This document shows positions 1-37,843 of a stretch of DNA of 64,000 nt, piece after piece. Made by a program: the position numbers and the translations under genes. Each line of letters begins with the position of its first letter. Positions within the stretch are counted from its first letter, which is position 1. The DNA is from Escherichia phage Ge15: sequence record PP359696.1. One strand, given 5' to 3'. The notes beneath the pieces were generated by a model, which saw only the letters and a program-made list of their open reading frames with translations, was not told the DNA's origin and searched no databases.

Positions 1-81
1 GAACTGTCATCTTACCTTGTAGCACAGATTGATAATGATGTTGATGATAAAGTTATGATGAGTTTTAAAAAATATTTTTAA
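1..81 (+). CDS. nrdB: 3' end of upstream gene, partial; C-terminal tail resembles ribonucleotide reductase small subunit NrdB
   Basis: Open frame from window edge to TAA at 79-81 giving ...ELSSYLVAQIDNDVDDKVMMSFKKYF, similar to the acidic NrdB C-terminal tail; T4 synteny nrdB-denA. Confidence 0.5.
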   Translation, partial: ELSSYLVAQIDNDVDDKVMMSFKKYF

Positions 82-108
82 GGAGTGGGCCGCAAGGCCC
101 ATTTTATT

Positions 109-4551: not shown

Positions 4552-4744
4552 CATAGAAAAGATTTATCGACTTTGTGATAAAATTGAAAAAGAAAAGAAA
4601 TATCTATTTTGTTTATGGCCTATTGTTGATGGAAGAGTAGGCTTAGATGTTCTTGATTATGAAACAGAAGATAAAGTAGATGGTTCAACTTTTGATAATG
4701 CGTTGGATGTTATTGATTGGCTTGAAGAAAATTATGTGAGGTAA
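4544..4744 (+). CDS. Hypothetical protein
   Basis: 66-aa ORF in pseT-cd interval. Confidence 0.5.
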   Translation: MNNIEKIYRLCDKIEKEKKYLFCLWPIVDGRVGLDVLDYETEDKVDGSTFDNALDVIDWLEENYVR

Positions 4745-4746
4745 AT

Positions 4747-5022
4747 ATGTTTCCAACTTATTCTAAAATCGTAGAAGTAGTGTTTAGCCAAATTATTGCT
4801 AATAATATGTTTGAAAAGCTTGATAATGCAGCTGAGCTTCGAATTCATGCTCAAGTGACTCATGTATTGAATACTTTGCTTCCAGACCAGGTGGATTCTA
4901 TTGCAATTACTCTGTATCCAGGTTCTGCTCATATTATTGTCGTATTCGGTCTTGATGCTGAGCTAGTCATCAAAGGCGATATTCGCTTTGAATCACAGAC
5001 ATCAGAATTCAAAGCAATTTAA
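4747..5022 (+). CDS. Hypothetical protein
   Basis: 91-aa ORF in pseT-cd interval. Confidence 0.5.
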   Translation: MFPTYSKIVEVVFSQIIANNMFEKLDNAAELRIHAQVTHVLNTLLPDQVDSIAITLYPGSAHIIVVFGLDAELVIKGDIRFESQTSEFKAI

Positions 5023-5024
5023 TA

Positions 5025-5063
5025 GTTTACTTTACGGTAGAGTTGTGATATTATAGCTCTACC
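5025..5063 (+). promoter_or_regulatory. Putative early promoter (GTTTAC -35, TATTAT -10) with inverted repeat enclosing the -10
   Basis: GTTTAC 5025-5030; tattat 5049-5054; inverted repeat ggtagag 5036-5042 / ctctacc 5057-5063; followed by SD GAGGA and ATG 5085. Confidence 0.5.
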
Positions 5064-5084
5064 AAAACAAATGAGGAAATTGAA

Positions 5085-5612
5085 ATGAGCGAATGGTTTG
5101 AAGAAGATAAGGTTTATCGCTTTAAAGCTGGATATAAAGATATTTTTAATGAAACTTGTGGGGCTAATAAACGAATTGCTCAGTTTATTGGGGAAAATTC
5201 ATTTAAAGTAAAAATAGATCCTGCGAAAAATGTTATTAGCATTAAACGCGAAATTGACGATTGCTGGTATAAAGCTGTTGATGTAATGGGCGAATCTTAT
5301 AAAGAAAGCCCGCTATTTTCAATTACTTATATGTCAGAATATTATTTTTTCGAAGAAGTTCAAAAAGATGACTCTATCAGTAAATTTGAAATTAAAACTG
5401 ATAAAGAAATTAAGTGGAAAGTAGTAGGTATTACTGGTTGTATGTTTTATATCTATGCTCAAACTGATACGAAGGAAGAAGCTAAAAAGAAAGCTCTAGA
5501 ATATCTTGAAGAGTATGAAGAAGGCCCGGTAATGATTACCCAAGATGCCGAATTAGTTTCTGTCAAATTAGTTAAAAACGTTGAAAGTAAGGAGCTGGGA
5601 TCAACATGCTAA
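5085..5612 (+). CDS. Hypothetical protein
   Basis: 175-aa ORF with good SD (gagga) 8 nt upstream. Confidence 0.6.
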   Translation: MSEWFEEDKVYRFKAGYKDIFNETCGANKRIAQFIGENSFKVKIDPAKNVISIKREIDDCWYKAVDVMGESYKESPLFSITYMSEYYFFEEVQKDDSISKFEIKTDKEIKWKVVGITGCMFYIYAQTDTKEEAKKKALEYLEEYEEGPVMITQDAELVSVKLVKNVESKELGSTC

Positions 5613-28754: not shown

Positions 28755-28997
28755 TTAAAAGCTTTCTTCTACTTCATCGTCTGAATCTTCTAATTCAGCT
28801 CTTTTTCCTGCCAAAGCATCTCTGACTGAGATGTCATCAGTATCTTTTAATTCAGTTTCTTTAACTCTTTTCTTGTAATAAGCTTCAAGTTCTTCTAGAC
28901 CTTCTAATGTTTGACAAGAGGCAATTTTACCCATAAATTCATCAATAGAAGCTTCATAAAGAAATTGTTTAAATTCTAGTAACATCTTTTTCTCCAA
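28755..28997 (-). CDS. uvsW.1: UvsW.1 small acidic protein
   Basis: 80-aa ORF directly downstream of uvsW as in T4. Confidence 0.7.
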   Translation of the reverse strand: MEKKMLLEFKQFLYEASIDEFMGKIASCQTLEGLEELEAYYKKRVKETELKDTDDISVRDALAGKRAELEDSDDEVEESF

Positions 28998-29010
28998 AGG
29001 GCCGAAGCCC

Positions 29011-30519
29011 TTATAAATTAACTGTTTTCATTACGTAATTAAATTTTTCATCTGCGTAGCGCTGAATACGATCAATGCCATGTTTTAAAAGATAGTTCAA
29101 ATGAACGTATTTCTTTTTCGTATTAGCAGATTTTGGTTTAACACCGCAATCATCGATGAGGTCCCAGACCGTTGCGATTGTTTTAGAACCATGCTTACGT
29201 AATACGCGACCTATTGTTTGCAATACAATAATTTTAGATTTAACACCGTGTGCTAAAACAACGTGATGCAGATTTTTAACTGAAATGCCAGTAGAAAATA
29301 CACCATAACTAGCTACTATAATTATTCCTTTACCGTTTTCAGCTAAGGTTTTCATTACGTTGCGTGTTTCGGTATCAACTTCCCCTGATACGTAATAAAC
29401 TTTATCGTATTCATTTTTAATTAAATCGAAAATAGCTTTACCGTGCGATACGTGTTTAAACATGACAAAAGCGTTTTCATCTTTTTGTGCAAGCTTAATA
29501 GCTAATTTAGCGATCCATTTATTTCTTTTACTGAGCCCAGTAATAATTTTTATTTCTTCTTGGTAAGTTTTTCCCTTTAATTTAGTAGTGAACTCATCGG
29601 GATAGCGAAGAAAAATACTATTAATTTTTAGCTCAGTTACTTGTCCATCTTCCATTAATTTAGAGGTCGTTACTGGCTTAAATATTTCACCAAACATTCC
29701 AACATACTGCATGATATTAGCTTTGCCATCACGTAATGAACCAGACAAACCAAATTTAAACATACAGTTATTTAAACCTGATATGATAGATGAAATACTT
29801 TTTCCTGTGGCAAGATGGCATTCATCATTCATCATCATTCCAAACTGTGAGAACCATTCTTTTGGCTGTTTTACTACAGTTTGCCATGTACCAACAACAA
29901 CTGGCGCATCATTTTTATATTTATCATCTTTTGATGCTCCACCGCCGATTTTCTTTATCATTGCATGACTGAATAAACGATAGTCAACAAAGTCATCAGC
30001 CATCTGAGTTGTTAAAGCAGTTGTTGGAACAATGATAAGAATTTTACCTTCATAATTTTCCAAATAATATCGAGCGAGCAAAGCTTGAATTAAAGATTTA
30101 CCTGCGGATGTTGGAAGATTAAGAATTCTACGACGATTAACTAATCCTTCGAACACTGCATCTTTTTGATACCAATGCGGTTCAATTCTTTTATTTCCTG
30201 AATAGATTTCTAATTTAGAAAGCCATTCATCAAAATCTTTTCTTGATAATTCTTCTTTTTCGTTAATCTGTGGGTCAATCCAGGCTTTATAGCCAAAGTT
30301 ATCGCAGAACTTTTTAATTTGCCCGACTAAGCCGAATGGAAGAAGACGATTATAATCTAAAAGACGGATTCGTCCATCCCAGTTGCCATATCTGAAGCGA
30401 GGGTTAAATCTATATCCATCGGCCTCAAACGAAAAGAAATCTCTTAATTCGTGGAACGTGCTCTCTTCACAATCGATGCGTACATGACTGAAGTCGTGAA
30501 AATGTACTTTAATATCCAT
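29011..30519 (-). CDS. uvsW: UvsW SF2 DNA helicase
   Basis: 502 aa; Walker A LPTSAGKS, DECH box (MMNDECHLA); matches recalled T4 UvsW. Confidence 0.95.
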   Translation of the reverse strand: MDIKVHFHDFSHVRIDCEESTFHELRDFFSFEADGYRFNPRFRYGNWDGRIRLLDYNRLLPFGLVGQIKKFCDNFGYKAWIDPQINEKEELSRKDFDEWLSKLEIYSGNKRIEPHWYQKDAVFEGLVNRRRILNLPTSAGKSLIQALLARYYLENYEGKILIIVPTTALTTQMADDFVDYRLFSHAMIKKIGGGASKDDKYKNDAPVVVGTWQTVVKQPKEWFSQFGMMMNDECHLATGKSISSIISGLNNCMFKFGLSGSLRDGKANIMQYVGMFGEIFKPVTTSKLMEDGQVTELKINSIFLRYPDEFTTKLKGKTYQEEIKIITGLSKRNKWIAKLAIKLAQKDENAFVMFKHVSHGKAIFDLIKNEYDKVYYVSGEVDTETRNVMKTLAENGKGIIIVASYGVFSTGISVKNLHHVVLAHGVKSKIIVLQTIGRVLRKHGSKTIATVWDLIDDCGVKPKSANTKKKYVHLNYLLKHGIDRIQRYADEKFNYVMKTVNL

Positions 30520-30521
30520 AA

Positions 30522-31139
30522 TTATGCCTTACTAAATTTGCCTTTAGAATCTCTTTTCATGAGACGACCTTTAATAAATCCGTCGGGAATAATACCGTCT
30601 GGTTGTATTAATTTATTTATTGCGCCATTATTGACCCAAAAAGTTCCTGTGGTAGTCGGTTTGACTTTACATCCTTTTCTGGACTTTCTATTAGGATGAA
30701 CCATCCCTTTTACAAATCCTTCTGGAACAAGTTCTCCAGGTTTAATAAAAATATTTTTAGTTCCATTAGTGTAGCAAGTTTTACCTAATACCGTGCCTGG
30801 TGAGTTTTCAAATCTTTTAGCGGAAGATTCTTTCATCTTTGCTATAACCTCTGTAGTCATAACAATTCCACCAATTCCACCAGGTTTCATATTATAATAA
30901 TTTTTGCTTTTTATTAGTTCAGGAGTTATAATTTCTTCTTCATACATGTACGCTTCTTCGGAAGTTTTAAACTCTTTTAATATTGTTCTAGAGAAATTGT
31001 TTTCACCATATTTCTTTATAGCCTGCTGAATTGCCTTACCGGAACCAAGGTAACCATCATTCAAGTCATCAGTAGAGTGTTTTCCTATATACTTTTTACC
31101 ATTTATTAGATTTGTTGTTTCATATACAAAGTGGTACAT
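30522..31139 (-). CDS. GIY-YIG homing endonuclease (Seg family; segD-like position)
   Basis: 205 aa; N-terminal GIY-YIG module YHFVYETTNLINGKKYIGKH; basic C-terminal region. Confidence 0.8.
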   Translation of the reverse strand: MYHFVYETTNLINGKKYIGKHSTDDLNDGYLGSGKAIQQAIKKYGENNFSRTILKEFKTSEEAYMYEEEIITPELIKSKNYYNMKPGGIGGIVMTTEVIAKMKESSAKRFENSPGTVLGKTCYTNGTKNIFIKPGELVPEGFVKGMVHPNRKSRKGCKVKPTTTGTFWVNNGAINKLIQPDGIIPDGFIKGRLMKRDSKGKFSKA

Positions 31140-31167
31140 ACTATTTTCCGAGTAATAAATATATCTA

Positions 31168-31175
31168 TATTTATA
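31168..31175 (-). promoter_or_regulatory. Late promoter (TATAAATA on minus strand) for the GIY-YIG gene
   Basis: Plus-strand TATTTATA about 29 nt upstream of the minus-strand start at 31139. Confidence 0.55.
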
Positions 31176-31188
31176 CTGAGGAAATATT

Positions 31189-31869
31189 ATGATAGATAAA
31201 GATTATATTGCAGAGCTGAAGGCTCTTGATGATAATAAAGAAGCTAAAGCTAAATTAGCTGAATATGCTGAACAGTTTGGTATAAAGGTCAAAAAGAATA
31301 AATCTTTTGATAATATCGTTAATGATATTGAAGAAGCCCTCCAGAAGCTCGCTAGTGAACCTATGCCAGAGACTGATGGGTTATCTATTAAAGACTTAAT
31401 TGATGCTGCTGATGCTGCAGACGGATTAAAATATGACGATGAAGAAGTCAATCCAGAAGCAGCACTTCTGATTGATTCTCCGGTTAAATCTGACATTAAA
31501 ATTGAAGTAGTAGAAACGGATAAAATTCCTGAAAATACCGATGTTTTGATTGAAGATACTCCTTTTGTTGAAGAAAAATTCGAGCAGGCTGTAGCTGAGA
31601 TTATTGAATCTGAAAAGCCGTCTGTATTTACTCTTCCGGAAAACTTTAGTCCGAATCTTCAGCTGATTGGAAAAAATCCAGGATTCTGCACTGTTCCTTG
31701 GTGGATTTACCAGTGGATTGCTGAAACTCCGGATTGGAAATCTCACCCAACTAGTTTTGAACACGCGTCGGCGCACCAAACTTTATTTAGCTTAATTTAC
31801 TACATTAATCGTGACGGATCAGTTCTAATTCGTGAAACACGTAATTCTTCTTTCGTAACATTAAAATAA
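31189..31869 (+). CDS. inh: Inhibitor of prohead protease
   Basis: 226 aa MIDKDYIAELKALDDNKEAKAKLAEYAEQFG...; position and length as T4 Inh. Confidence 0.88.
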   Translation: MIDKDYIAELKALDDNKEAKAKLAEYAEQFGIKVKKNKSFDNIVNDIEEALQKLASEPMPETDGLSIKDLIDAADAADGLKYDDEEVNPEAALLIDSPVKSDIKIEVVETDKIPENTDVLIEDTPFVEEKFEQAVAEIIESEKPSVFTLPENFSPNLQLIGKNPGFCTVPWWIYQWIAETPDWKSHPTSFEHASAHQTLFSLIYYINRDGSVLIRETRNSSFVTLK

Positions 31870-31878
31870 GGATAACTT

Positions 31879-33297
31879 ATGGCTTTTACAGTTGATATAA
31901 CTCCTAAAACACCGACAGGGGTTATTGATGAAACTAAGCAGTTTACTGCTACACCCAGTGGTGAAACTGGAGGCGGAACTATTACATATGCTTGGACTGT
32001 AGATAATGTTCCACAAGATGGAGCTGAAGCAACTTTTGATTATGTATTAAAAGGACCTGCTGGACAAAAGACTATTAAAGTAGTTGCAACAAATACACTT
32101 TCTGAAGGAGGCCCGGAAACGGCTGAAGCGACAACAACTATCACAGTTCAAAATAAGACACAAACGACTACCTTAGCTGTAACTCCTGCTAGTCCTGCGG
32201 CTGGAGTGATTGGAACAGCCGTTCAATTTACCGCTGCCTTAGATTCACAGCCGCCAGGTGCATCTGCTACGTATCAATGGCACGTTGACGGTTCTCCTGT
32301 AAGCGAAGCAACTGACGCTACATTCAATTACACTCCTGACACAAGCGGAGTTAAAACAATTAAGTGTGTAGCTCAAGTAACCGCGACAGATTATGATACA
32401 AAGGAAGTTACTTCCAATGAAGTGTCACTGACTGTTAATAAAAAGACGCAGACAACTACATTAGCCGTAACTCCTGATAGTCCTTCAGCTGGAGTAATTG
32501 GAACCCCAGTTCAATTTACTGCTGCCTTGGTTTCTCAACCTGTTGGAGCGTCTGCTACATATAAATGGTATGTAGATGATTCACAAGTTGGTGGAGAAAC
32601 TAACTCTACATTTAACTATACTCCAACTACAAGTGGAGTAAAAAGAATTAAATGCGTAGCGCAAGTAACGGCAGAAAATTACAATGAAAAGGAAGTTACT
32701 TCTAATGAAGTATCATTGACAGTTAATAAGAAGACAATGAATCCACAAGTTACATTGACTCCTCCTTCTATTAACGTTCAGCAAGATGCTTCGGCTACAT
32801 TTACGGCTAATGTCACTGATGCTCCAGAAGAAGCACAAATCGAATATTCATGGAAGAAAGATTCTTCTCCTGTAGAAGAATCAACTAATGTATACACCGT
32901 TGATACATCATCTATCGGAAGTCAAACTATTGAAGTTACTGCCACTGTTACTGTCACTGATTATGATAGCAAAACTATCACAGCAGAAGGTCAAGTTCAG
33001 GTAACTGATAAAGTTGCTCCAGAACCAGAAGGTGAATTGCCTTATGTTCATCCTCTTCCACATCGTACTTCAGCTTATATCTGGTGCGGTTGGTGGGTTA
33101 TGGATGAAATCCAAAAAATGACAGAAGAAGGTAAAGATTGGAAAACTGAAGATCCAGATAGTAAATACTACCTGCATCGTTACACCCTTCAGAAGATGAT
33201 GAAAGACTATCCAGAAGTTGATGTTCAAGAATCACGTAATGGATACATCATTCATAAAACTGCTTTAGAAACTGGTATCATCTATACCTATCCATAA
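31879..33297 (+). CDS. hoc: Hoc head outer capsid protein, 4 Ig-like domains + capsid-binding C-terminal domain
   Basis: 472 aa; tandem Ig-like repeats; C-terminal domain ...PYVHPLPHRTSAYIWCGWWVMDEIQKM...; about 96 aa longer than the ~376 aa I recall for T4 Hoc. Confidence 0.9.
   Translation: MAFTVDITPKTPTGVIDETKQFTATPSGETGGGTITYAWTVDNVPQDGAEATFDYVLKGPAGQKTIKVVATNTLSEGGPETAEATTTITVQNKTQTTTLAVTPASPAAGVIGTAVQFTAALDSQPPGASATYQWHVDGSPVSEATDATFNYTPDTSGVKTIKCVAQVTATDYDTKEVTSNEVSLTVNKKTQTTTLAVTPDSPSAGVIGTPVQFTAALVSQPVGASATYKWYVDDSQVGGETNSTFNYTPTTSGVKRIKCVAQVTAENYNEKEVTSNEVSLTVNKKTMNPQVTLTPPSINVQQDASATFTANVTDAPEEAQIEYSWKKDSSPVEESTNVYTVDTSSIGSQTIEVTATVTVTDYDSKTITAEGQVQVTDKVAPEPEGELPYVHPLPHRTSAYIWCGWWVMDEIQKMTEEGKDWKTEDPDSKYYLHRYTLQKMMKDYPEVDVQESRNGYIIHKTALETGIIYTYP
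32152..32724 (+). repeat. Tandem duplication of an Ig-like domain coding unit inside hoc (2 x ~285 bp)
   Basis: Units 32152-32436 and 32437-32724 are roughly 80 percent identical at protein level (NKTQTTTLAVTPASPAAGVIG... vs NKKTQTTTLAVTPDSPSAGVIG...). Confidence 0.85.
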
Positions 33298-34887: not shown

Positions 34888-34912
34888 AGGGACCGAAAGG
34901 TCCCTTTGTTTT
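34888..34912. terminator. Bidirectional rho-independent terminator between rnlB (+) and gene 24 (-)
   Basis: gggacc-gaaa-ggtccc flanked by A-run upstream and T-run downstream. Confidence 0.75.
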
Positions 34913-36194
34913 ATTCATCAATGATAATTTTTGGTAGCTTAACACCTAATAAAACAGACAAATCTGAACGACCCGCCATTTTATCCATGTCTCCACCGTC
35001 AATTACTCTTGCTTCTTTTTCATCTTTTGCTACAGTGTAAGGATTTGCAGATAAAGCATATCTAACTAATAAACCGATAGATGGCTGCAAACTTTCTGGA
35101 TCAACTACAACTTTAAATGCACCTACATGTTCAGGGTCATCTAAGTCAAGACCTTCTGTATACGGAGCATAGAAAATTGACCCAACAATTTCTTTTTCAC
35201 CAATATTTTCTACTACGCCAACGATTACATAATCTAATGGGCTGTTGGTATCGCAATAAAGCGGTAAACCATTAGCTAAGAACCCATAGGCATTTTGTGA
35301 AAGATATTTGTCATCTTCTGGTTTATGTTTTAACCAACCTGATGCAGCAAGAATCGCAGCAGCACGAGCTGAAGCAACACAGAACGTTGCTGTATAAGTT
35401 GATTCTTTCTGGATATGTGAAACCATTTCACACACCATTCGGTATAATGAACGACCGGCTTCAGGTGCAGATGCATAACTCAAATCAATGAATCCAGTAT
35501 CAGTAATTCCTGTAACTTTATAGCGTTTTGACACTGTAATCAAAGACTGCAGAATATCTTTATTGATTTCATCTGCCATTTCGGTTGCAAGCAAATCTTC
35601 CAAGAAATTAGGAGCATCGAATCCATTTGCTTCTAAATCTTGTGCTAATTCAACTGTAATGCCAGTTTTAAGTTTACGAGATTTAACTGCGGTTTGCCAT
35701 TTATTAATCTGGAATCTAGCATCCGCAATTTCACTATCAGAGCTTTCAAATTTGCTTGTTACTGCAGCATCAGAAAATAGACGAACCTTTAAAAGAACAA
35801 TTGCAATCTGAAGAGCTAATTCTAAATCACTTTCTTCAATATCAGCAAATGGTGTATTTTCTAATACTTTATAAACGATATTATTATATTTGAATAAATC
35901 ACCTTTATTGAGAGTTAATTTAGACTCTTCTGTTAATTCTGTGATTTGTTCTCGGTCTACATACCCAGCTTCGCCAGCGTAAGTAGCACCAGTTTTAAAT
36001 GTAAATTCATTGTCTGGGTTAAGGTATTTGATACCATAAAAAGCAGCAACAGGTTGATTAGTTCTTTGCGTTGCTACAATGTCAGAATATATTAATTTAG
36101 TGGTAGCGCGAGTCAAAGCAACGAGATTTGGGCGACCGATTGAGTTGCTATTCGTTGTGGTTGATTCGCGCAGAAGTTCGTTGATTTTAGCCAT
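34911..36194 (-). CDS. 24: Capsid vertex protein
   Basis: 427 aa; paralog of the major capsid protein; synteny. Confidence 0.92.
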   Translation of the reverse strand: MAKINELLRESTTTNSNSIGRPNLVALTRATTKLIYSDIVATQRTNQPVAAFYGIKYLNPDNEFTFKTGATYAGEAGYVDREQITELTEESKLTLNKGDLFKYNNIVYKVLENTPFADIEESDLELALQIAIVLLKVRLFSDAAVTSKFESSDSEIADARFQINKWQTAVKSRKLKTGITVELAQDLEANGFDAPNFLEDLLATEMADEINKDILQSLITVSKRYKVTGITDTGFIDLSYASAPEAGRSLYRMVCEMVSHIQKESTYTATFCVASARAAAILAASGWLKHKPEDDKYLSQNAYGFLANGLPLYCDTNSPLDYVIVGVVENIGEKEIVGSIFYAPYTEGLDLDDPEHVGAFKVVVDPESLQPSIGLLVRYALSANPYTVAKDEKEARVIDGGDMDKMAGRSDLSVLLGVKLPKIIIDE

Positions 36195-36221
36195 TGCGCT
36201 TTCCTTTTGGTTTATATGATT

Positions 36222-36229
36222 TATTTATA
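36222..36229 (-). promoter_or_regulatory. Late promoter (TATAAATA) for gene 24
   Basis: Plus-strand TATTTATA 28 nt upstream of the minus-strand start at 36194. Confidence 0.65.
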
Positions 36230-36244
36230 CCATAAAAACAACTA

Positions 36245-36262
36245 AAGGGACCCGAAGGTCCC
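36245..36262 (-). terminator. Hairpin downstream of gene 23
   Basis: agggacc-cgaa-ggtccct stem between gene 23 stop and gene 24 promoter. Confidence 0.55.
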
Positions 36263-36277
36263 TTAAATCGTCAAAGA

Positions 36278-37843
36278 TTAGATACCTTTAACATATACAC
36301 GGCGGAAGTAAGCGTTTTTACCAAGGCTATTCAGAATAGAAGGCATACCGCTCTGGATGCGAGAAGCCGGAGCCTGAGCAGCGGATTCTGCAAATGGGTT
36401 GATACCGATACCGTAACGAGTTTTGAATCCCATTACTGGTTGGAAGTTCTTCGGATCGGAACCACGCAGCGGAGTCAGAGCTACATATGGAGCGTAGTAA
36501 ATACCAGCATCCATTTCGTTCGGACCTTTATAACCTACAGTGAAATAATCCTGTTTAGCATACTGGTCGATATATACACGGTATTTACCACCCAGAACAC
36601 CAGCAAATACTGACTTGGTAGTATCAGTGTTAAAGCCGGTAGCCAGACCCTGTGCAGCATAAGAAATGCCAGTATCAACTGAAGCCAGAACGTTAACTAC
36701 GTTACGGGAAGCGATAATGAAGTTACCTTCACCGCGACCGGTCTGACGAGCAATTTCAACTGCTTCTTTGTCAATCTGGAACAACAGAGCTTTAAAGGAT
36801 TCACCCGCCCAGCGAGCACCACGAATATCAATCGGATCCTGGAAGTCAAATACGCCAGCTTTAGAACCCGGAGTCAGGGTCATACCAGATTTACCAACCT
36901 GAGCTGAGTAATTAATCCAATCAACAACTTCGCGGTTGATTTCCAGCATGATTTCGGTAGCCAGAATACCAGACAGTTCAGCATCAGCATCCATACCGTG
37001 AACAGCGCGGAGGTCTTGTGCTAATTCGATAGAGTAAGCAGCTTTCAGCTGACGAGATTTAGCTTCGATAACTTGTTTATCGATACGGAAGCCCATTTCA
37101 TTCCATGGGTTATCGGTAGAACCGTTGAAACCTTCCTGAAGTTCAGCGATAGAAGTAGCCATACCTTCAGCGATTTCTACCAGTACACCAGCTTCCATTT
37201 GTTTCTTAACTTCGGCATCTAATTTAGTTGCATCAGTCGCGCCAGAATCAAGTGTTACGATAGCAGAAGCTTGCAGATATACAGTACCAGTTTCCTGGAA
37301 GAAGTGAGAATAGATGTCACCTACAACTGTAGTAGTATTAGCAGCCAAAGCTGGGAATTTCTTAGCAGCACCCTGACCAGAGAACATTGCATCTGGACCA
37401 TACATTGGGTGGAATGCTTCTTTAGCACCGGAAGCGATTGGGTCTTTACCATATACTGCGCGCAGTGCGAATACCTGACCAGTCGGGCTGTTCATCGGCT
37501 GAACACCGCAAATACCGAAAGCAATCAGGTTAGGAATAGCACGACGTACCATACCCATAACAGCTGGGCCAATCTGAGTTACTGCGCCAGAAGTCTGACC
37601 AGCAGCGATGTTAGTAGCGTTGTAACCGTGGTCACCACCGATTTCAGCTTCTGTTAAGAAAGAACCGAACGCCTGAGCGATTTTTTCGTCTTTGTACTCT
37701 GGAGCTGTCTGGAAATCTTTTTCCTGGTTTTCAAAGATTTTAGCGATAATCGCTTGTTTGCTATTAGCAATTTCCGGTAAACCTTCACCTTCCAGTAATG
37801 GTTTCCATTTGTTCAAAAGTTCAGCTTTAGTTTTGATAGTCAT
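36278..37843 (-). CDS. 23: Major capsid protein
   Basis: 521 aa MTIKTKAELLNKWKPLLEGEGLPEIANSKQAII...; matches recalled T4 gp23 precursor. Confidence 0.97.
   Translation of the reverse strand: MTIKTKAELLNKWKPLLEGEGLPEIANSKQAIIAKIFENQEKDFQTAPEYKDEKIAQAFGSFLTEAEIGGDHGYNATNIAAGQTSGAVTQIGPAVMGMVRRAIPNLIAFGICGVQPMNSPTGQVFALRAVYGKDPIASGAKEAFHPMYGPDAMFSGQGAAKKFPALAANTTTVVGDIYSHFFQETGTVYLQASAIVTLDSGATDATKLDAEVKKQMEAGVLVEIAEGMATSIAELQEGFNGSTDNPWNEMGFRIDKQVIEAKSRQLKAAYSIELAQDLRAVHGMDADAELSGILATEIMLEINREVVDWINYSAQVGKSGMTLTPGSKAGVFDFQDPIDIRGARWAGESFKALLFQIDKEAVEIARQTGRGEGNFIIASRNVVNVLASVDTGISYAAQGLATGFNTDTTKSVFAGVLGGKYRVYIDQYAKQDYFTVGYKGPNEMDAGIYYAPYVALTPLRGSDPKNFQPVMGFKTRYGIGINPFAESAAQAPASRIQSGMPSILNSLGKNAYFRRVYVKGI

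What the first reader, a model, noticed from the sequence alone, without database searches (positions are those of the whole stretch)
30522..31175. Free-standing GIY-YIG homing endonuclease gene between uvsW and inh with its own late promoter
The 205-aa ORF has a clear N-terminal GIY-YIG module and a basic C-terminal DNA-binding-like region, and sits alone on the minus strand between conserved genes, typical of Seg-type homing endonucleases. A TATAAATA late promoter lies 29 nt upstream. Such genes are mobile and vary between T-even strains, marking this as a likely site of marker exclusion or gene conversion in mixed infections.
Basis: partly seen in the sequence, partly recalled or inferred. 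Interest (0 to 1): 0.4.

Follow-up and report, generated by a model that had tools for sequence, protein, structure and literature searches.

The report
Known T4 homing endonuclease gene segE
This ORF is the well-studied phage T4 homing endonuclease gene segE, one amino acid different from T4's copy, in its usual place between inh and uvsW, so the finding is correct but ordinary.

Summary
The 205-aa ORF at 30522..31139 (-) is real. It is segE: 99.0% nucleotide identity and 204/205 residues identical to T4 SegE, with the same neighbours (inh | segE | uvsW). SegE is a GIY-YIG homing endonuclease already shown by experiment to cut the 5' end of uvsW in segE-less relatives such as RB30, and to copy itself into them in mixed infections.

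Two details need correcting.
- The gene is not alone on its strand. uvsW follows 2 nt after its stop codon on the same strand.
- The TATAAATA 28 nt upstream is not a promoter that segE brought with it. The same element sits the same distance upstream of uvsW in every empty site examined, so segE inserted behind the existing uvsW late promoter.

The first ~140 nt of uvsW differ by 19-27%, mostly silently, between carriers and non-carriers. Elsewhere in the flanks the difference is mostly 1-5%. This fits the published target site and self-immunity.

Novelty: already known. Interest: low.

The parts
30522..31139 (-). segE coding sequence (205 aa plus stop codon)
   Evidence: ORF listed. It is 99.0% identical in DNA to T4 segE (AF158101.6 112057..112674) and 99.7% to RB3 and AR1. 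204/205 residues match T4 SegE; the difference is E97 here against D97 in T4. PHROG 314 'homing endonuclease', E 1.3e-43.
30864..31139 (-). GIY-YIG catalytic domain (about residues 1-92)
30525..30863 (-). Basic C-terminal half (residues 93-205), presumed DNA-binding region: a linker helix followed by two ~26-aa beta-hairpin repeats (30702..30779 and 30564..30641)
   Evidence: pI 10.2, 22 K+R against 8 D+E; the two repeats share 10/26 residues. The model gives helix 96-112 and hairpins at 121-132 and 167-178. The second repeat (W168, G172, P185, G191, R192) is conserved across the family. No Pfam match. The DNA-binding role is inferred, not tested.
31168..31175 (-). T4-type late promoter motif TATAAATA; the resident uvsW late promoter, now driving segE first
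   Evidence: Exact match. Identical in 8 occupied and 7 empty Tequatrovirus sites. Also present 30 nt upstream of uvsW in the empty Mosigvirus AV109 site and 29-31 nt upstream of SegE orthologs in LF82-41, L017 and L019. Annotated 'predicted late promoter' in phage fPS-2. Kreuzer & Brister 2010 (PMC3016281) state that UvsW is expressed from a late promoter. No transcript mapping was done here.
31140..31167 (-). segE 5' untranslated region and translation initiation region (GGA, 7 nt before the ATG)
   Evidence: Sequence. The first 15 nt after the TATAAATA (TAGATATATTTATTAC, which includes the motif's last A) are shared with empty sites. The last ~13 nt differ: TCGGAAAATAGT here against ATGGTATTTAGAC in empty sites.
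30380..30519 (-). First ~140 nt of uvsW: the segE-linked, mostly silently diverged allele of the SegE target region (self-immunity block)
   Evidence: Divergence between carriers and non-carriers is 19-27% in uvsW nt 0-150, against mostly 1-5% in the rest of the flanks. 19 of the 26 fixed differences lie at nt 5..98. 35/150 nt differ, and 21 of 26 differing codons are synonymous. The published target is uvsW / the hoc.1-uvsW region.
29011..30519 (-). uvsW helicase gene, co-oriented, starting 2 nt after the segE stop; a possible Shine-Dalgarno sequence (AAGG, 30527..30530) lies inside the last segE codons
   Evidence: ORF and Pfam UvsW_N, ResIII and Helicase_C hits. Junction sequence AGTAAGGCATAATTATGG. 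No terminator-like site lies between the two genes.
30614..30621 (-). AATAAATA inside segE, 94 nt upstream of the uvsW ATG: candidate embedded late promoter for uvsW
   Evidence: One-mismatch match. At the same position, 95 nt upstream of uvsW, the 54% ortholog L019 has an exact TATAAATA and L017 has AATAAATA. LF82-41 has an exact TATAAATA 62 nt upstream. Edgell et al. 2010 say promoters for the downstream gene are embedded within segE. The evidence is confounded, because the bases also encode the conserved I-N-K of the repeat motif. Unverified.
31189..31869 (+). inh (prohead protease inhibitor), the divergently transcribed left neighbour
   Evidence: ORF. Aligns with genes annotated inh in T4, RB3 and others.

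Best explanation
This is segE, the free-standing GIY-YIG homing endonuclease gene of T4-type phages, in a Tequatrovirus genome.

Shown here:
- It is orthologous to T4 segE and has the same neighbours.
- It has a GIY-YIG fold.
- It is present in some close relatives and absent from others, and the empty sites are precise.
- The late promoter is shared with empty sites.
- A block of mostly silent divergence at the start of uvsW is linked to carrying the gene.

Taken from the literature on T4 SegE:
[quoted passage not shown] This copies segE and nearby markers into the recipient at close to 100% efficiency.

Inferred:
- The ORF inserted exactly between the 5' leader of uvsW and the uvsW start codon.
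- It is therefore transcribed late from the pre-existing uvsW late promoter, as the first cistron of a segE-uvsW-uvsW.1 message.
- uvsW is translated using a ribosome-binding site inside the last segE codons, possibly helped by a promoter-like element inside segE.
- The carrier's own uvsW escapes efficient cutting because its first ~100-140 nt carry about 25% mostly synonymous changes.
- The basic C-terminal half, with its two hairpin repeats, binds the target, and the N-terminal domain cuts nearby.
For: - Identity: 99.0% DNA identity to T4 segE and 204/205 residues. T4 annotation gives the order inh | segE | uvsW.
- Conserved residues: Y6, Y17, G19, N83 and E67.
- Distribution: 162 records carry the gene out of about 500 with at least 90% identical flanks. 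The others match in two pieces spanning 1052-1055 bp instead of 1671.
- Empty sites: all keep the TATAAATA and the proximal leader directly upstream of uvsW.
- Divergence: 19-27% between groups, confined to uvsW nt 0-150; between-group equals within-group divergence elsewhere. 21 of 26 differing codons are synonymous.
- Recombinant: the empty-site phage BCH953P4 switches to the carrier-type sequence after about nt 78 of uvsW.
- Same site in other lineages: orthologs at 49%, 64% and 54% identity occupy the same inh|uvsW junction. In Mosigvirus the carrier and the empty allele of uvsW differ only in about nt 20-80.
- Literature.
Against: - Nothing was tested biochemically for this particular copy. 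It differs from T4 SegE at residue 97 (E for D, in the linker).
- The canonical GIY-YIG Arg (I-TevI R27) falls in a 9-residue segment that the SegE family lacks, according to both HMMER and hhalign. The active-site make-up is therefore not fully canonical.
[quoted passage not shown] The primary paper (Kadyrov 1997) could not be read.
- Late transcription from the TATAAATA, and co-transcription with uvsW, are inferred from sequence only.
Confidence: 0.95

Rival explanations
1. The TATAAATA is part of the mobile segE cassette: the endonuclease brought its own late promoter when it inserted.
For: The motif lies 28 nt upstream of the segE ATG. Edgell et al. 2010 list segE among endonucleases transcribed from a promoter in the upstream non-coding region.
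Against: The identical TATAAATA and the following 15 nt are present 29-30 nt upstream of uvsW in all 7 empty Tequatrovirus sites and in the empty Mosigvirus AV109 site. The difference in length between occupied and empty sites (616 bp) is accounted for by the 618-bp ORF plus a 2-nt spacer, less 4 nt, so no promoter is included. UvsW is independently known to be a late-promoter gene.
Confidence: 0.05
2. The gene is a decaying or inactive remnant of a homing endonuclease, the late stage of the invasion-decay cycle, and no longer promotes homing.
For: The Arg equivalent to I-TevI R27 cannot be aligned. PF01541 scores just below its cut-off. Carriers are almost identical to one another, so there is little information on selection.
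Against: The ORF is full-length in all 166 matching records. It differs by one conservative residue from T4 SegE, which is reported active in vitro and in crosses. Lack of the Arg is shared by all 40 diverse family members, while other residues (D28, Y30, G32-S33-G34, K43) are invariant, which indicates purifying selection.
Confidence: 0.03
3. SegE has been partly domesticated. Besides homing, it is kept because uvsW expression now depends on signals inside it (ribosome-binding site, internal promoter), or because it regulates the shared late promoter as I-TevI represses its own.
For: The uvsW Shine-Dalgarno-like AAGG lies in the last segE codons. A promoter-like element is conserved about 95 nt upstream of uvsW inside SegE orthologs, and is an exact TATAAATA in L019 and LF82-41. 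Edgell et al. argue that embedded promoters favour retention of the endonuclease.
Against: About two thirds of close relatives do without segE, so no host function is required. The internal motif coincides with conserved I-N-K codons. No similarity between the promoter region and the target region was noticed, but this was not tested formally.
Confidence: 0.15

Closest known systems
Bacteriophage T4 SegE (AAD42658.1; Kadyrov et al. 1994, 1997)
   Same: 204/205 residues, the same length, the same inh|segE|uvsW position and orientation, and the same upstream TATAAATA and leader.
   Different: One conservative substitution (E97 here, D97 in T4) and 6 nucleotide differences. The surrounding genome is a different Tequatrovirus, about 97% identical to IsaacDaniel and Kha5h over 24 kb, with a longer Hoc (472 aa) and no segD.
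I-TevI catalytic domain (PDB 1LN0, 1MK0), the archetypal GIY-YIG homing endonuclease
   Different: I-TevI is encoded in an intron; SegE is free-standing. The SegE family lacks the 9-residue stretch of helix alpha-1 that carries I-TevI R27. The C-terminal region shows no Pfam match, and the model shows two beta-hairpin repeats there.
Other T4 free-standing Seg endonucleases (SegA, B, C, F, G)
   Same: They are intergenic GIY-YIG genes that cut a neighbouring gene in relatives lacking them, and they cause localized marker exclusion with co-conversion of flanks.
   Different: They have different insertion sites and targets. Edgell et al. treat segC, segF and segG as promoter-less cassettes, whereas segE sits directly behind a late promoter.
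SegE-like endonucleases at the same junction in other Tevenvirinae (Mosigvirus LF82-41, 243 aa; P0004, 209 aa; P0008, 212 aa)
   Same: They occupy the same inh|uvsW insertion point behind the same late promoter and have the same domain order.
   Different: They are 49-64% identical. LF82-41 has an extra ~40-residue insert after the linker region.

Membership tests
T4 SegE ortholog group | Near-identical sequence to T4 SegE | tested here: met
   99.0% DNA identity and 204/205 residues.
T4 SegE ortholog group | Located between inh (hoc.1) and uvsW, co-oriented with uvsW | tested here: met
   Window ORFs compared with the T4 annotation and the table in Edgell et al. 2010.
T4 SegE ortholog group | Site-specific cleavage at the 5' end of uvsW in segE-less phages | not testable with these tools
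   Known only from the literature. Indirect support comes from the silent-divergence block in uvsW nt 5-98.
GIY-YIG nuclease superfamily | GIY and YIG motifs with conserved Tyr, Tyr and Gly | tested here: met
   F4-V5-Y6 and Y17-I18-G19. Y6, Y17 and G19 are invariant in 40 homologs and align with I-TevI Y6, Y17 and G19.
GIY-YIG nuclease superfamily | Conserved Arg on helix alpha-1 (I-TevI R27) | tested here: not met
   HMMER and hhalign both place I-TevI residues ~20-28 (SAKDFEKRW), or 23-31 (DFEKRWKRH) in hhalign, in an insertion with no SegE column. The model has a loop at residues 24-34 in place of a helix. This holds for the whole family. Another invariant residue such as K43, or near-invariant H21, could be a substitute, but this is unknown.
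GIY-YIG nuclease superfamily | Metal-binding Glu (I-TevI E75) and structural Asn (N90) | tested here: met
   N83 is invariant and aligns with N90. E67 is at least 90% conserved and lies within one position of E75 in the HMMER alignment.
GIY-YIG nuclease superfamily | Three-stranded sheet flanked by helices (GIY-YIG fold) | tested here: met
Free-standing homing endonuclease gene | Not inside an intron or intein; a separate ORF between genes | tested here: met
   Intergenic ORF with its own start and stop codons.
Free-standing homing endonuclease gene | Sporadic presence among close relatives, with precise empty sites | tested here: met
   162 carriers among about 500 close records. All 7 empty junctions are identical. 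Flanks beyond 150 nt show the same divergence between and within groups.
Free-standing homing endonuclease gene | Biased inheritance with co-conversion in mixed infection | not testable with these tools
   Reported for T4 x RB30. The recombinant empty allele in BCH953P4 shows exchange within the block.
T4 late promoter | TATAAATA placed to give a start a few nt downstream; gp55/gp33-dependent late transcription | tested here: inconclusive
   The motif is exact and conserved. No transcript data are available here. The literature states that UvsW is expressed from a late promoter.

The most novel reading that the evidence does not exclude
The SegE family, several hundred to more than a thousand sequences in public data, is a GIY-YIG lineage that cuts DNA without the helix alpha-1 arginine regarded as a hallmark of the superfamily. 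Its active site would be rebuilt around a conserved D28-x-Y30-x-G32-S33-G34 loop and K43. It would read DNA through a previously undescribed two-copy beta-hairpin repeat rather than the known NUMOD, helix-turn-helix or zinc-finger modules.
Probability: 0.3. Interest if true: 0.3.

Novelty: already known. Interest (0 to 1): 0.1.

Why it matters
The gene and its behaviour have been textbook material for T4 since the 1990s, so finding it in another T4-like genome adds little.

The comparisons made here give a tidy worked example of three points:
- A free-standing homing endonuclease slots in behind a resident promoter.
- Its target gene carries a short, mostly silent immunity block that is linked to the endonuclease.
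- One junction (inh|uvsW) has hosted diverged members of the same endonuclease lineage across several phage genera.

For annotation, the locus marks a boundary where markers are expected to be unequally inherited in mixed infections.

Tried and rejected
- Single-sequence search of SegE against PDB sequences gave no meaningful hit; the best was a tail tube protein at E 0.008, judged spurious. A 40-sequence profile was needed to reach I-TevI.
- Pfam on the C-terminal 110 residues at E up to 10 returned nothing. NCBIfam gave only a sub-threshold group I intron endonuclease hit, 35 bits against a cut-off of 56.
- The primary SegE paper (Kadyrov 1997) and the T4 genome review (Miller 2003) are not held in the library. 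The exact cut position and the mapped promoters therefore could not be checked.
- A profile search of all window ORFs of at least 70 aa for further SegE-family genes found only segE itself.
- The sigma-70 and terminator scan found no convincing sigma-70-type promoter and no terminator between segE and uvsW.
- A MotA-type middle promoter inside segE was considered by eye and dropped, because the candidate bases differ between T4 and the window at synonymous sites.
- 'Alone on the minus strand' and 'own promoter' were both rejected on the evidence given above.

Full report
**Observation.** The window has a 205-aa ATG-initiated ORF at 30522..31139 on the minus strand. An exact TATAAATA lies at 31168..31175 on the same strand, with 28 nt between it and the start codon. 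The motif is enriched in the window, 19 copies against 8.4 +/- 2.7 in shuffles. The ORF is flanked by UvsW (29011..30519, minus; Pfam UvsW_N 148 bits) and by the divergently oriented 226-aa inh gene (31189..31869, plus). Further out lie uvsW.1, hoc and rnlB. One descriptor in the finding is wrong. The ORF is not alone on its strand, because uvsW starts 2 nt after its stop codon on the same strand.

**Identity.** The ORF is segE.
- It matches 166 phage records over its full length. It is 99.7% identical to RB3 and AR1 and 99.0% to T4 segE (AF158101.6 112057..112674), and many of the matches are annotated 'segE homing endonuclease'.
- The protein differs from T4 SegE at one position, E97 against D97.
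- T4's annotation shows the same order: inh, segE, uvsW.
- A 24-kb stretch around the gene is about 97% identical to several Tequatrovirus genomes, with none identical. The window therefore comes from another member of that genus.

**Protein.**
- Pfam gives SegE_GIY-YIG (36.5 bits, above cut-off) and GIY-YIG (21.5 bits, just below). PHROGs gives a homing endonuclease family at E 1.3e-43.
- A database search found 1418 relatives. In an alignment of 40 diverse ones, Y6 (GIY), Y17 and G19 (YIG), N83, and D28, Y30, G32, S33, G34, K43, G45, G87, G88 are invariant. E67 is at least 90% conserved.
- A profile of that alignment finds the I-TevI catalytic domain as the top solved structure (E 0.02-0.03). 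It aligns Y6, Y17, G19 and N83 with I-TevI Y6, Y17, G19 and N90, and places E67 within one position of E75.
- One canonical feature is missing. The stretch of I-TevI helix alpha-1 that carries R27 is an insertion relative to the SegE family in both HMMER and hhalign alignments. The model shows a loop at residues 24-34 instead of that helix. This is true of the whole family, and T4 SegE is reported active, so I treat it as a family peculiarity and not as evidence of inactivity.
- The C-terminal half is basic (pI 10.2) and has no Pfam match. It is modelled as a helix followed by two beta-hairpin repeats, residues 121-146 and 167-192, which share 10/26 residues. The second repeat is conserved across the family.

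**What is already known.**
- Edgell et al. 2010 (PMC2988022) list segE as a free-standing, active GIY-YIG endonuclease inserted between inh and uvsW, with uvsW as its target.
- Brok-Volchanskaya et al. 2008 (PMC2330249) summarize Kadyrov et al. 1997. SegE cuts in the hoc.1-uvsW region of RB30 and RB52, which lack segE. In T4 x RB30 mixed infections segE is inherited with almost 100% efficiency. This depends on an intact segE and on homology, and flanking sequences are co-converted.
- From my own memory of the 1997 abstract, the site is at the 5' end of uvsW, and T4 DNA is cut less efficiently. I could not read that paper.

**Presence and absence.** A 1671-bp query spanning inh-segE-uvsW matched about 500 records at 90% identity or more. 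Of these, 162 cover the whole query. The remainder match in two pieces spanning 1052-1055 bp, which is the query minus about 616 bp. I aligned 8 occupied sites (window, T4, fPS-2, IsaacDaniel, RB3, T6, SHFML-26, PYPS2T) with 7 empty sites (T2, NR1, BCH953P4, Sf21, TadeuszReichstein, e11/2, JY01). All empty sites share one junction.

**The promoter.** Every empty site keeps the identical ...CAGTATAAATATAGATATATTTATTAC... sequence, and there the uvsW start codon follows 29-30 nt after the TATAAATA. The same holds in a different genus. The empty Mosigvirus AV109 has TATAAATA 30 nt upstream of uvsW, while its relative LF82-41 has it 29 nt upstream of a SegE-like gene. UvsW is known to be made from a late promoter (PMC3016281).

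So segE did not bring this promoter. It inserted between the resident uvsW late promoter and leader and the uvsW start codon, and its ATG now sits where the uvsW ATG sits in empty sites. No terminator-like site separates segE from uvsW. An AAGG 7 nt before the uvsW ATG lies within the last segE codons. This suggests a segE-uvsW late message.

Edgell et al. also say promoters for the downstream gene are embedded in segE. The best candidate is AATAAATA at 30614..30621, 94 nt before uvsW. Its counterpart is an exact TATAAATA in a 54% ortholog. However, it overlaps conserved I-N-K codons, so it remains unproven.

**The target side.** Divergence between carriers and non-carriers is 19-27% in the first 150 nt of uvsW. 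It is mostly 1-5% everywhere else in the compared flanks, where it equals within-group divergence. It rises again only near the 3' end of uvsW, where an extra insertion in T6 and PYPS2T disturbs the alignment. Nineteen of the 26 fixed differences fall at uvsW nt 5-98, and the inh side has none beyond the junction itself. Thirty-five of 150 nt differ, and 21 of 26 differing codons are synonymous.

One empty-site phage, BCH953P4, is a recombinant. It carries the empty-type sequence up to about nt 78 and the carrier-type sequence after that. In Mosigvirus the carrier and empty uvsW alleles differ only in about nt 20-80. The two empty alleles share GATTTTAGTCACGTG where both carrier alleles are changed, which makes that stretch a candidate core of the recognition site; this is inference. 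The pattern is what a homing endonuclease that cuts the 5' end of uvsW, together with a linked resistant allele, would produce.

**Wider distribution.** Orthologs at 64% and 54% identity sit at the same inh|uvsW junction in more distant T4-like contigs, and a 49% ortholog in Mosigvirus does too.

**Verdict.** The finding is correct in substance and corresponds to a gene characterized nearly thirty years ago. The two corrections are that it is co-oriented and contiguous with uvsW, and that its late promoter is the captured uvsW promoter. The only mildly unusual points are the missing R27 equivalent and the unannotated repeat in the C-terminal half. Novelty: already known. Interest: low.

Noticed in passing
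window 36195..36277 (between gene 24, 34911..36194 -, and gene 23, 36278..37843 -): Only 83 nt separate genes 23 and 24. This phage therefore lacks segD, which T4 carries at that position according to the table in Edgell et al. 2010. This is a second site in the window where a homing endonuclease gene is present in some relatives and absent here.
   Followed up: partly
L014 (T6) 4625..5317 and L016 (PYPS2T) 4677..5369; window equivalent 28997..29011: T6 and Yersinia phage PYPS2T carry an extra 230-aa ORF, annotated as a homing endonuclease in PYPS2T, between uvsW and uvsW.1. The window has no such insert.
   Followed up: no
L017 3633..6359 and L018 1246..3972: In the contigs that carry the 64% SegE ortholog, uvsW is also interrupted by an intein (Hint and Intein_splicing Pfam hits on the split products). 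uvsW therefore hosts several kinds of selfish element in different lineages.
   Followed up: no
window 31879..33297 (+): Hoc is 472 aa here against 376 aa in T4, apparently with an extra Ig/PKD-like repeat. The same long form is seen in IsaacDaniel and JY01 (1419-bp genes), and a similar 1425-bp gene in Sf21.
   Followed up: no
window 31154..31161 (+): AATAAATA lies 27 nt upstream of the inh ATG, back to back with the minus-strand TATAAATA within the 49-nt divergent intergenic region. It is probably the inh late promoter mentioned by Edgell et al.
   Followed up: partly
window 30564..30641 and 30702..30779 (-), SegE residues 167-192 and 121-146: Two ~26-aa repeats (consensus roughly W/Y-x-x-N-G-x-x-N-x-x-I-x6-P-x-G-F/W-x-K-G) are modelled as beta-hairpins. 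They have no Pfam family. The number of copies varies among homologs in the alignment.
   Followed up: partly
L008 (Tequatrovirus BCH953P4) uvsW nt ~78: This empty-site phage has a uvsW 5' end that is a mosaic: empty-type up to about nt 78 and carrier-type afterwards. It marks a natural recombination breakpoint inside the segE-linked block.
   Followed up: partly
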